Shown here in pieces: positions 27,901 through 30,900 of a stretch of 64,000 nucleotides of DNA. Source of the stretch: Escherichia coli (GTDB taxonomy: Bacteria; Pseudomonadota; Gammaproteobacteria; Enterobacterales; Enterobacteriaceae); NCBI RefSeq assembly GCF_017348835.2, contig NZ_CP071375.1; one strand, given 5' to 3'. A program made the position numbers. Within the stretch, counting starts at the first letter, position 1. Each line of letters starts with the position of its first letter.

Positions 27901-30900
27901 TAACTCAGGCATGAAAGAAGGAGATTGTGTACATACACTGCCACCAGTTACGTTATCAACCATTTTCTTTCTCCTCATTCATATGAAAGTTGTAGTAATA
28001 ATAAGGTTACTATTTAATTATCAACTATCAAATTTCGCTCATTTGTATATTCCTTTGTCTTTTTACGTCATTTCCCTATCAGGTCATCGACCTGGTAATG
28101 AGGTGAGTAAACCGCGACACGTCAACGTGGGAAACAGCTCCTTGTAATGGTATCCCTACAATCAATGTCATCACCTTCAAAAATAATGATAAAAATTAAA
28201 AAAATTATCCACCCACGGATTTTTGTTAATATTCTGAGTGTGCCAGCTTTCATAAACACAGCCAATAACTAATTGTGATTCGATTCACATTTAAACAATT
28301 TCAGAATAGACAAATTTCTTGAGTATTATACTGTAGCCTCGTGTCTTTCGAGGATAAGTGCATTATGAATATCTTACATATATGTGTGACCTCAAAATGG
28401 TTCAATATTGACAACAAGATTGTCGATCACCGCCCTTGATTTGCCCTTCTGTAGCCATCACCAGAGCCAAACCGATTAGATTCAATGTGATCTATTTGTT
28501 TGCTATATCTTAATTTTGCCTTTTGCAAAGGCCATCTCTCGTTTATTTACTTGTTTTAGTAAATGATGGTGCTTGCATATATACATGGCGAATTAATGGA
28601 TATTGCAGATGTAATATTCACAGGGATCACTGTAATTAAAATAAATGAAGGATTATGTAATGGAAAACTTTAAACATCTCCCTGAACCGTTCCGCATCCG
28701 TGTTATTGAGCCAGTAAAACGTACCACTCGCGCTTATCGTGAAGAAGCAATTATTAAATCCGGTATGAACCCGTTCCTGCTGGATAGCGAAGATGTGTTT
28801 ATCGATTTACTGACCGACAGCGGCACCGGGGCGGTGACGCAGAGTATGCAGGCCGCGATGATGCGCGGCGACGAAGCTTACAGCGGTAGCCGCAGCTACT
28901 ATGCGTTAGCCGAGTCAGTGAAAAATATCTTTGGTTATCAATACACCATTCCGACTCACCAGGGCCGTGGTGCAGAGCAAATCTATATTCCGGTATTGAT
29001 TAAAAAACGCGAGCAGGAAAAAGGTCTGGATCGCAGCAAAATGGTGGCGTTCTCTAACTATTTCTTTGATACCACGCAGGGCCATAGCCAGATTAACGGC
29101 TGTACCGTGCGTAACGTCTATATCAAAGAAGCCTTCGATACTGGCGTGCGTTACGACTTTAAAGGCAACTTTGACCTTGAGGGATTAGAACGCGGTATTG
29201 AAGAAGTTGGCCCGAATAACGTGCCATATATCGTTGCGACCATCACCAGTAACTCCGCAGGTGGTCAGCCGGTTTCACTGGCAAACTTAAAAGCGATGTA
29301 CAGCATCGCGAAGAAATACGATATTCCGGTGGTAATGGACTCCGCACGCTTTGCTGAAAACGCCTATTTCATCAAGCAGCGTGAAGCAGAATACAAGGAC
29401 TGGACCATCGAGCAGATCACCCGCGAAACCTACAAATATGCCGATATGCTGGCGATGTCCGCCAAGAAAGATGCAATGGTGCCGATGGGCGGCTTGCTGT
29501 GCATGAAAGACGACAGCTTCTTTGATGTGTACACCGAATGCAGAACCCTTTGCGTGGTGCAGGAAGGCTTCCCGACATATGGTGGTCTGGAAGGCGGCGC
29601 GATGGAGCGTCTGGCGGTAGGTCTGTATGACGGCATGAATCTGGACTGGCTGGCTTATCGTATTGCGCAGGTGCAGTATCTGGTCGATGGTCTGGAAGAG
29701 ATTGGCGTTGTCTGCCAGCAGGCGGGCGGTCACGCGGCATTCGTTGATGCAGGTAAACTGTTGCCGCATATCCCGGCAGATCAGTTCCCGGCACAGGCGC
29801 TGGCCTGCGAGTTGTATAAAGTCGCCGGTATCCGTGCGGTAGAAATTGGCTCTTTCCTGTTAGGCCGCGATCCGAAAACCGGTAAACAACTGCCATGCCC
29901 GGCTGAACTGCTGCGTTTAACCATTCCGCGCGCAACATATACTCAAACACATATGGACTTCATTATTGAAGCCTTTAAACATGTGAAAGAGAACGCGGCG
30001 AATATTAAAGGGTTAACCTTTACCTACGAACCGAAAGTATTGCGTCACTTCACCGCAAAACTGAAAGAAGTTTAATTAATACTACAGAGTGGCTATAAGG
30101 ATGTTAGCCACTCTCTTACCCTACATCCTCAATAACAAAAATAGCCTTCCTCTAAAGGTGGCATCATGACTGATCAAGCTGAAAAAAAACACTCTGCATT
30201 TTGGGGTGTTATGGTTATAGCAGGTACAGTAATTGGTGGAGGTATGTTTGCTTTACCTGTTGATCTTGCCGGTGCCTGGTTTTTCTGGGGTGCCTTTATC
30301 CTTATCATTGCCTGGTTTTCAATGCTTCATTCCGGGTTATTGTTATTAGAAGCAAATTTAAATTATCCCGTCGGCTCCAGTTTTAACACCATCACCAAAG
30401 ATTTAATCGGTAACACCTGGAACATTATCAGCGGTATTACCGTTGCCTTCGTTCTCTATATCCTCACTTATGCCTATATCTCTGCTAATGGTGCGATCAT
30501 TAGTGAAACGATATCAATGAATTTGGGTTATCATGCTAATCCACGTATTGTCGGGATCTGCACAGCCATTTTCGTTGCCAGCGTATTGTGGATAAGCTCG
30601 TTAGCCGCCAGTCGTATTACCTCATTGTTCCTCGGGCTGAAGATTATCTCCTTTGTGATTGTGTTTGGTTCTTTCTTCTTCCAGGTCGATTACTCCATTC
30701 TGCGCGATGCCACCAGCACCACGGCGGGAACGTCTTACTTCCCGTATATCTTTATGGCTTTGCCGGTGTGTCTGGCGTCATTTGGTTTCCACGGCAATAT
30801 TCCCAGCCTGATTATTTGCTATGGCAAACGCAAAGATAAGCTAATCAAAAGCGTTGTCTTCGGTTCGCTGCTGGCGCTGGTGATTTATCTCTTCTGGCTC

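What the first reader, a model, noticed from the sequence alone, without database searches (positions are those of the whole stretch)
28365..28659. tna attenuation leader intact next to the inserted island
The 24-codon TnaC peptide with Trp12 and a terminal Pro-stop is present, followed by a ~220-nt spacer before tnaA where Rho-dependent termination operates. The foreign insertion sits immediately upstream of the tna promoter, so it may have altered the promoter context.
Basis: partly seen in the sequence, partly recalled or inferred. Interest (0 to 1): 0.3.

Follow-up and report, generated by a model that had tools for sequence, protein, structure and literature searches.

The report
Intact tna leader beside effector islet
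This is the ordinary, fully intact tryptophan-sensing leader of the E. coli tryptophanase operon; a well-known 2.6-kb segment carrying one secretion-system effector gene ends exactly at the edge of the operon's CAP (cAMP receptor protein) binding site without removing any known control element.

Summary
tnaC (28365-28439) encodes MNILHICVTSKWFNIDNKIVDHRP, identical to K-12. It has Trp12, Asp16, Ile19, Pro24 and a TGA stop. A 220-nt spacer (28440-28659) without an intrinsic terminator follows, then tnaA (28660) and tnaB.

The neighbouring segment (25663-28271, 2609 bp, about 35% GC) carries one ShET2/EspL-family type III effector gene on the minus strand. It replaces the 149 bp that K-12 has between the mnmE stop codon and the tna promoter.

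The right junction is 28271/28272, the outermost base of the 22-bp CAP site. The CAP site, the -35/-10 region, the start site and the tnaC ribosome-binding site are all kept, collinear with K-12 and without indels. Only DNA upstream of about -70 is new.

Nine substitutions relative to K-12 cluster in the spacer and -10 region. They are not caused by the island. The same 93 bp occur 100% identical in island-free genomes, and K-12 carries the minority type.

The island haplotype is in about 765 of 5426 complete E. coli genomes, including O157:H7 and O55:H7, always at this junction. E. albertii, E. whittamii, Citrobacter and Leclercia have the short form, so the island is derived.

Verdict: real, well understood, already known; low interest.

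The parts
24298..25662 (+). mnmE, the left flanking core gene. Homology to K-12 ends at its TAA stop codon (25660-25662).
   Evidence: Annotation of the identical strain PE164. Alignment to K-12.
25663..28271 (.). The 2609-bp island segment, about 31-43% GC. It replaces the 149-bp K-12 intergenic filler.
   Evidence: Junctions. GC profile. No similarity to the K-12 filler. No terminal repeats or target-site duplication.
25685..25720 (.). Hairpin detected as terminator-like on both strands, lying between the convergent mnmE and effector genes. It stands in for the native mnmE terminator.
   Evidence: One search found it on both strands: 12-16 pairs, with a T-run after the + strand copy. repeat I3.
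25801..27963 (-). ShET2/EspL2-family type III secretion effector gene, 720 aa. The longest ORF would start at 27978.
   Evidence: Pfam PF07906 Toxin_15, E = 1.7e-49. RefSeq name. A 90%-identity cluster of 1097 members. Present in 767 E. coli genomes.
27964..28271 (.). Island-borne upstream region of the effector gene. It now forms the DNA upstream of the tna CAP site.
   Evidence: Conserved among island-bearing loci only. Island-free genomes do not match it.
28271..28292 (+). CAP (cAMP receptor protein) site AATTGTGATTCGATTCACATTT. TGTGA is at 28274-28278 and TCACA at 28285-28289. The island junction falls at its first base.
   Evidence: Sequence. Identical to K-12 from 28272 onward. Its role as the CAP site is established knowledge (Deeley and Yanofsky 1982; PMC5748587 states that CRP activates tnaCAB).
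28300..28335 (+). Core promoter region, collinear with K-12. It contains TTCAGA and TAGACA as -35 candidates and TATTAT, TATACT and TACTGT as -10 candidates. Eight substitutions relative to K-12 fall here.
   Evidence: Which hexamers are actually used was not verified here.
28341..28341 (+). Inferred transcription start, 319 nt before the tnaA ATG.
   Evidence: Inferred from the published 319-nt leader length (own knowledge; the paper could not be read) and the indel-free alignment to K-12.
28365..28439 (+). tnaC, the 24-codon leader peptide with W12, D16, I19, P24 and a TGA stop.
   Evidence: One synonymous change relative to K-12, at 28418.
28440..28659 (+). The 220-nt tnaC-tnaA spacer. The Rho utilisation (rut) site lies next to the stop codon, and Rho-dependent termination takes place within the spacer.
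   Evidence: 28440-28531 is identical to K-12, with six substitutions further on. C/G = 1.67 in the first 101 nt. No intrinsic terminator found. Mechanism from PMC3902921 and PMC12360218.
28660..30075 (+). tnaA, tryptophanase, 471 aa.
30166..31413 (+). tnaB, the low-affinity tryptophan permease.

Best explanation
[quoted passage not shown] Transcription starts from a CAP-dependent promoter.

The ribosome translating the 24-codon tnaC normally terminates at the UGA stop. That frees the adjacent rut site, and Rho terminates transcription in the 220-nt spacer. With free tryptophan, the TnaC-tRNAPro ribosome stalls at Pro24/UGA and covers the rut site. Transcription then reaches tnaA and tnaB.

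Immediately upstream, 2609 bp of low-GC DNA carry a single ShET2/EspL-family effector gene, transcribed away from tna, plus a hairpin that scans as terminator-like on both strands. This DNA replaces the ancestral 149-bp mnmE-tna spacer. It ends at the outer base of the CAP site.

The haplotype is old and widespread: about 14% of complete E. coli genomes, including O157:H7 and O55:H7. It leaves every known tna control element in place.

Shown here: the sequences, the junctions, the population frequency and the polarity (which form is ancestral). Inferred from the literature on K-12: that the leader functions as described.
For: - TnaC is identical to K-12 and matches TIGR02616.
- From the CAP edge to tnaA, the 388 bp are collinear with K-12, with 16 substitutions and no indel. 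The stretch 28440-28531, next to the stop codon where the rut site lies, is identical.
- No intrinsic terminator was found in the leader.
- The leader is present in 5394 of 5426 genomes.
- The right junction is at 28272 in every listed island-free genome, and 765 genomes span the junction.
- The left junction lies directly after the mnmE stop codon.
- The filler DNAs of the two forms are unrelated, and there are no flanking repeats.
- E. albertii, E. whittamii, strain SCPM-O-B-8794, Citrobacter NCU1 and Leclercia all have mnmE, then 197-242 bp, then tnaC, with no effector gene. The three Escherichia loci, which were aligned, also carry a K-12-like filler.
- The promoter substitutions are found identical in the island-free strain AZ159 and others.
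- The mechanism is described in PMC3902921 and PMC12360218.
Against: Nothing argues against the identification itself. The limits are these:
- No expression data exist for this strain.
- The positions of the -35, -10 and start site come from my recollection of Deeley and Yanofsky 1982, which could not be read.
- All DNA upstream of about -70 is different and AT-rich. A quantitative effect on tna transcription cannot be excluded.
- TorR is reported to bind the tna promoter (PMC5720752). I could not locate its site relative to the junction.
Confidence: 0.93

Rival explanations
1. The replacement of everything upstream of the CAP site measurably changes tna transcription in island-bearing strains. 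Possible routes are loss of an upstream activator site such as TorR, H-NS binding to the AT-rich island, or interference or CAP-site sharing with the divergent effector promoter.
For: - The junction is at the first base of the CAP site.
- The 308 bp now upstream are about 34% GC and must hold the effector gene's divergent promoter.
- TorR is reported to bind the tna promoter.
Against: - The CAP site, the core promoter and all spacings are intact.
- The haplotype persists in about 14% of genomes, including O157:H7, which is indole-positive (own knowledge).
- No match to the tor box CTGTTCATAT within 2 mismatches lies in the 149 bp that were lost. The only nearby one sits in the leader, K-12 locus 2154-2163, which corresponds to window 28614-28623 and is conserved.
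Confidence: 0.2
2. The island form is ancestral, and K-12-type strains lost the effector gene by deletion.
For: - The island alleles are very divergent from one another, 88.7-100% nucleotide identity.
- A homolog at the same site exists in a non-coli Escherichia contig, L008. This suggests great age.
Against: - The five other island-free genomes recovered in the genome-contig scan (three Escherichia lineages, Citrobacter, Leclercia) all have the short form.
- The 149-bp filler of the short form, including the mnmE terminator, is homologous between K-12 and the three aligned Escherichia loci. It has no counterpart in the island, so a deletion cannot generate it.
Confidence: 0.04
3. The cluster of substitutions in the -35/-10 spacer and -10 region (28315-28331) is part of the imported DNA. 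On this view the true junction lies inside the core promoter.
For: Relative to K-12 alone, eight of the 16 differences fall within 17 bp just downstream of a perfectly conserved 43-bp CAP/-35 block.
Against: - The same 93-bp promoter occurs at 100% identity in island-free genomes (H40-H46; AZ159 checked).
- About half of the sampled genomes have it or a close variant, and the K-12 type is the minority.
- E. albertii, which is island-free, has the same -10 variant.
Confidence: 0.02

Closest known systems
E. coli K-12 tnaCAB leader (tnaC / tnaL), with tryptophan-induced ribosome stalling that blocks Rho-dependent termination
   Same: - Identical 24-residue peptide and the same UGA stop.
- Identical sequence for 92 nt after the stop codon, the stretch where the rut site lies.
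- The same 220-nt spacer.
- The same CAP site core and the same spacing to tnaC.
- tnaA and tnaB lie downstream.
   Different: - Sixteen single-base substitutions in 388 bp: nine upstream of tnaC, one synonymous in tnaC and six in the distal spacer.
- DNA upstream of the CAP site is unrelated to K-12.
The mnmE-tnaC effector islet of E. coli O157:H7 and O55:H7. The gene is a ShET2/EspL2-family effector; I recall it being called espL4 but did not verify the name.
   Same: Same position, same orientation and same junctions. It is a single gene with a Toxin_15 domain.
   Different: The window carries a rare allele. It is about 89% identical in DNA to the O157 allele. Only 2 of 767 genomes are at least 99% identical to it, one of them the pig strain PE164, which is 100% identical.

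Membership tests
TnaC-type tryptophanase leader (Rho-dependent attenuation) | A short upstream ORF encoding a TnaC peptide with the conserved Trp (W12), Asp (D16) and Pro (P24), plus the semi-conserved I19 | tested here: met
   Translation. TIGR02616 at 44.3 bits against a cut-off of 23.55. The residue requirements come from PMC3902921.
TnaC-type tryptophanase leader (Rho-dependent attenuation) | Pro24 followed directly by a UGA stop codon, which is read by release factor 2 (RF2) | tested here: met
   CCT TGA at 28434-28439.
TnaC-type tryptophanase leader (Rho-dependent attenuation) | A rut site (and a boxA-like sequence) adjacent to the tnaC stop codon | tested here: met
   28419-28531 is base-for-base identical to K-12. 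C exceeds G in the first 101 nt after the stop codon. The exact boxA and rut boundaries rest on my own knowledge of Konan and Yanofsky 2000, which could not be read.
TnaC-type tryptophanase leader (Rho-dependent attenuation) | A spacer of about 220 nt before tnaA with no intrinsic terminator | tested here: met
   The spacer is 220 nt. The terminator scan found none in 28365-28700.
TnaC-type tryptophanase leader (Rho-dependent attenuation) | tnaA and tnaB immediately downstream in the same operon | tested here: met
TnaC-type tryptophanase leader (Rho-dependent attenuation) | A CAP-dependent promoter upstream | tested here: met
   The 43-bp block of CAP site plus -35 region, 28272-28314, is identical to K-12. 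Binding and activation were not testable here.
TnaC-type tryptophanase leader (Rho-dependent attenuation) | Tryptophan-induced ribosome stalling and relief of Rho termination | not testable with these tools
   This needs toe-printing or a tnaA'-lacZ reporter assay.
ShET2/EspL family type III effector (the neighbouring gene) | ShET2 N-terminal (Toxin_15) domain | tested here: met
   PF07906, E = 1.7e-49, residues 138-383.
ShET2/EspL family type III effector (the neighbouring gene) | Secretion by a type III system and cysteine-protease activity | not tested
   No related solved structure was found. The catalytic residues were not examined.

The most novel reading that the evidence does not exclude
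Because the island ends at the first base of the CAP site, that one site may now serve both divergent promoters. cAMP-CRP would then co-regulate the effector gene with tryptophanase. The new AT-rich upstream DNA might also re-tune indole production in the 14% of E. coli that carry it. That group includes the enterohaemorrhagic E. coli (EHEC) lineage O157:H7, and in EHEC and enteropathogenic E. coli indole feeds back on type III secretion genes.
Probability: 0.1. Interest if true: 0.35.

Novelty: already known. Interest (0 to 1): 0.1.

Why it matters
It matters little beyond bookkeeping. The result shows that a textbook attenuator is intact in this strain. It also shows that a common effector islet has a fixed junction at the outer base of the CAP site, so all known tna control elements are kept. 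The one open point is whether the changed upstream context alters tna expression in island-bearing pathogens such as O157:H7, where indole influences virulence-gene expression.

Tried and rejected
- Rfam search of 25600-28800 at E up to 1: only two chance snoRNA hits. Nothing in Rfam matched the tna leader.
- Local alignment of the K-12 149-bp filler against the island ends: scores were within the shuffle range, so no remnant homology. A 15-nt AT-rich match between E. albertii and window ~28186-28200 (GATAAAAATTAAAAA) appeared in the MAFFT alignment. I judged it possibly chance, given the low-complexity sequence.
- Search for terminal direct or inverted repeats, or a target-site duplication: none bracket the island.
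- Tor-box (CTGTTCATAT) scan of the K-12 locus with up to 2 mismatches: no site in the lost 149 bp.
- Attempts to read Bordi 2003, Deeley and Yanofsky 1982 and Konan and Yanofsky 2000: none is held. Three full-text searches on TorR yielded only a statement that TorR can bind the tna promoter, with no site position. An espL4/tnaA search gave nothing useful.
- Linkage of the -10 variant to the island: tested and rejected.
- Elevated divergence in the flanks as a trace of imported DNA: only a slight rise in the last 150 bp of mnmE (11 differences), not convincing.
- PDB sequence search for the effector: no hit.

Full report
**Observation**

Window 28365-28439 reads ATGAATATCTTACATATATGTGTGACCTCAAAATGGTTCAATATTGACAACAAGATTGTCGATCACCGCCCTTGA. 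It translates to MNILHICVTSKWFNIDNKIVDHRP*. This is the K-12 TnaC peptide residue for residue, with Trp12, Asp16, Ile19, Pro24 and a TGA stop. It scores 44.3 bits against NCBIfam TIGR02616 'tnaC_leader', whose cut-off is 23.55.

The tnaA ATG is at 28660. This follows from the annotation of strain PE164, which is 100% identical over the 3.2 kb compared. The spacer 28440-28659 is therefore 220 nt, as in K-12. The finding's interval is exactly tnaC start to the last base before tnaA. tnaA (28660-30075) and tnaB (30166-31413) follow.

The 295-bp leader occurs full length and ungapped in 5394 of 5426 complete E. coli genomes at 95-100% identity.

**Leader anatomy against K-12**

From the CAP-site edge to the base before tnaA (28272-28659, 388 bp) the window is collinear with K-12. 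There are 16 substitutions and no indel:

| Region | Positions | Count |
|---|---|---|
| Upstream of tnaC | 28315-28319, 28325, 28327, 28331, 28348 | 9 |
| In tnaC (synonymous, Lys18 AAA to AAG) | 28418 | 1 |
| Distal spacer | 28532, 28584, 28585, 28598, 28600, 28604 | 6 |

The stretch from 28419 to 28531 is identical to K-12. It covers the end of tnaC, the stop codon and the first 92 nt after it. This is where the rut site lies according to the literature (PMC12360218; PMC3902921). C exceeds G in the first 101 nt after the stop (25 C against 15 G).

The consensus scan finds no intrinsic terminator in the leader, which fits Rho-dependent control. Nothing in Rfam matched this leader.

**Mechanism**

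This part rests on the literature, not on tests here. At low tryptophan, TnaC is released at the stop codon. The ribosome leaves, Rho loads on the adjacent rut site, and it terminates the polymerase paused in the spacer. At high tryptophan, free tryptophan in the exit tunnel blocks RF2-mediated cleavage of TnaC-tRNAPro at Pro24. [quoted passage not shown] Every sequence requirement named in those papers is met here.

**The neighbouring DNA**

Between mnmE (24298-25662) and tnaC lies a minus-strand gene. It spans 25801-27963 (720 aa); the longest ORF would start at 27978. It carries Pfam PF07906 (ShET2 enterotoxin N-terminal region, E = 1.7e-49). RefSeq names it 'ShET2/EspL2 family type III secretion system effector toxin'.

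GC content falls from about 55% in mnmE to 31-43% across 25600-28600. A 12-16-bp hairpin at 25685-25720 sits between the convergent mnmE and effector genes and scans as terminator-like on both strands.

**Junctions**

In K-12, mnmE ends 242 bp before tnaC. In the window the distance is 2702 bp.

- **Left junction.** Alignment shows that homology stops directly after the mnmE TAA, at 25662/25663.
- **Right junction.** Homology resumes at 28272. In a search with a 193-bp probe spanning this junction, every listed island-free genome begins to match at probe position 101, which is window 28272. A total of 765 genomes match across the junction.
- **Nature of the event.** The 149 bp of K-12 that lie between the junctions include the native mnmE terminator hairpin. 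They have no detectable similarity to any part of the island. No direct or inverted repeats bracket the island. So 2609 bp replace 149 bp.
- **Position relative to the CAP site.** The junction base 28271/28272 is position 1/2 of the 22-bp CAP site AATTGTGATTCGATTCACATTT (TGTGA at 28274-28278, TCACA at 28285-28289). K-12 has G at position 1 and the window has A. A 43-bp block from 28272 to 28314, covering the CAP site and the -35 region, is identical to K-12.

**Are the promoter substitutions caused by the island? No.**

The window and O55:H7 share GAGTATTATACTGTAG where K-12 has GAGTGTAATAATGTAG. But the whole 93-bp promoter of the window is found 100% identical in island-free genomes (H40-H46).

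I fetched one of these, strain AZ159. It has a K-12-like 148-bp filler, no effector gene, and all nine of the window's promoter substitutions.

In the evenly spaced sample, the 60 rows split as follows:

| Class | Rows |
|---|---|
| Island-bearing | 9 |
| Island-free with the window-type promoter or a near variant | 33 |
| Island-free with the K-12 type | 17 |
| Truncated | 1 |

K-12 is therefore the minority type. The same dimorphism crosses species: E. albertii has the window type, while E. whittamii and strain SCPM-O-B-8794 have the K-12 type.

I could not read the 1982 promoter paper. The start site at 28341 (319 nt before tnaA) and the identity of the hexamers are therefore recalled knowledge. 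The candidates are TTCAGA-18-TATTAT or TAGACA-16-TACTGT. The spacing of all elements is unchanged whichever hexamers are used.

**Polarity and age**

A degenerate tnaC pattern scan of one genome per species returned six loci.

- **Short form in the five island-free loci.** E. albertii, E. whittamii, SCPM-O-B-8794, Citrobacter sp. NCU1 and Leclercia adecarboxylata all have mnmE, then 197-242 bp, then tnaC, with no effector gene. The three Escherichia loci, which I aligned, share the K-12-type filler, including the mnmE terminator. The short form is therefore ancestral and the island is derived.
- **Non-coli occurrence.** The sixth locus, L008, is a 3.1-kb contig binned into a 'Collinsella' metagenome-assembled genome (MAG) that is plainly Escherichia DNA. 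It has an effector homolog (81% amino-acid identity) at the same junction.
- **Within E. coli.** The gene is in 767 genomes, single copy and chromosomal. Nucleotide identity to the window allele ranges from 88.7% to 100%: at least 99% in 2 genomes, 95-99% in 44, 90-95% in 153 and 80-90% in 568. The flanks differ from K-12 and O55:H7 by only about 2-4%.

The haplotype is old and its gene is fast-evolving or long-diverged, yet the junction is the same in all carriers.

**Does the new context matter?**

All recognised tna elements survive, and the haplotype is common, including in O157:H7 and O55:H7. What changes is everything upstream of about -70. That DNA is now AT-rich island sequence and must hold the effector gene's divergent promoter.

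TorR is reported to be able to bind the tna promoter (PMC5720752), but I could not find where. A tor-box scan with up to 2 mismatches finds nothing in the lost 149 bp. It finds one conserved site in the leader near tnaA, at K-12 locus 2154-2163, which corresponds to window 28614-28623. A quantitative effect on tna transcription is possible but unsupported. I give it about 0.2.

**Comparison and verdict**

This is the known tnaCAB leader, and all sequence-testable membership features are met. It lies next to the known mnmE-tnaC effector islet of O157-type and other E. coli, here in a rare allele. I recall the gene being called espL4 and did not verify that name.

Novelty: already known. Interest: low.

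Noticed in passing
window 28315-28331; L001 1855-1871; L004, L005, L009: The tna promoter's spacer and -10 region exists in two forms, GAGTGTAATAATGTAG and GAGTATTATACTGTAG. Both segregate within E. coli, and both also occur in other Escherichia species. A perfectly conserved 43-bp block of CAP site plus -35 region lies directly upstream of it.
   Followed up: partly
L004-L009 (tnaC stop codons): The tnaC stop codon is TGA in E. coli and E. albertii. It is TAA in E. whittamii, SCPM-O-B-8794, L008, Citrobacter NCU1 and Leclercia, although the described E. coli mechanism involves inhibition of RF2 at UGA.
   Followed up: no
L008 (JAIJJM010000386.1, 3097 bp): A contig binned as a 'Collinsella sp.' metagenome-assembled genome carries an Escherichia-type tnaC and an effector homolog (81% amino-acid identity). 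It is almost certainly a mis-binned Escherichia contig.
   Followed up: no
window 25801-27963: The effector gene is highly polymorphic. Across 767 E. coli genomes its nucleotide identity to the window allele runs from 88.7% to 100%, and only 2 genomes are at least 99% identical. The flanking mnmE and tnaA differ by only about 2-4%.
   Followed up: partly
L011 (strain SW07163); hit H130 (strain STEC388): These are natural tna knock-outs. In SW07163 an IS1 element follows the CAP/-35 block, and tnaC, tnaA and the 5' part of tnaB are missing. In STEC388 only the first 36 nt of tnaC match. In addition, 26 of 5426 genomes have no match to the leader at all.
   Followed up: no
window 27963-27978: The effector gene has two candidate start codons. 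The longest ORF starts at 27978 (MRRKKMVDNV...). The RefSeq annotation starts at 27963 (MVDNV...).
   Followed up: no
window 28186-28200 and L004 (E. albertii intergenic region): A 15-nt exact match, GATAAAAATTAAAAA, links the island's promoter-proximal end to the E. albertii ancestral spacer at a roughly collinear position. It could be chance in AT-rich DNA, or a trace of an older junction about 85 bp further upstream.
   Followed up: partly
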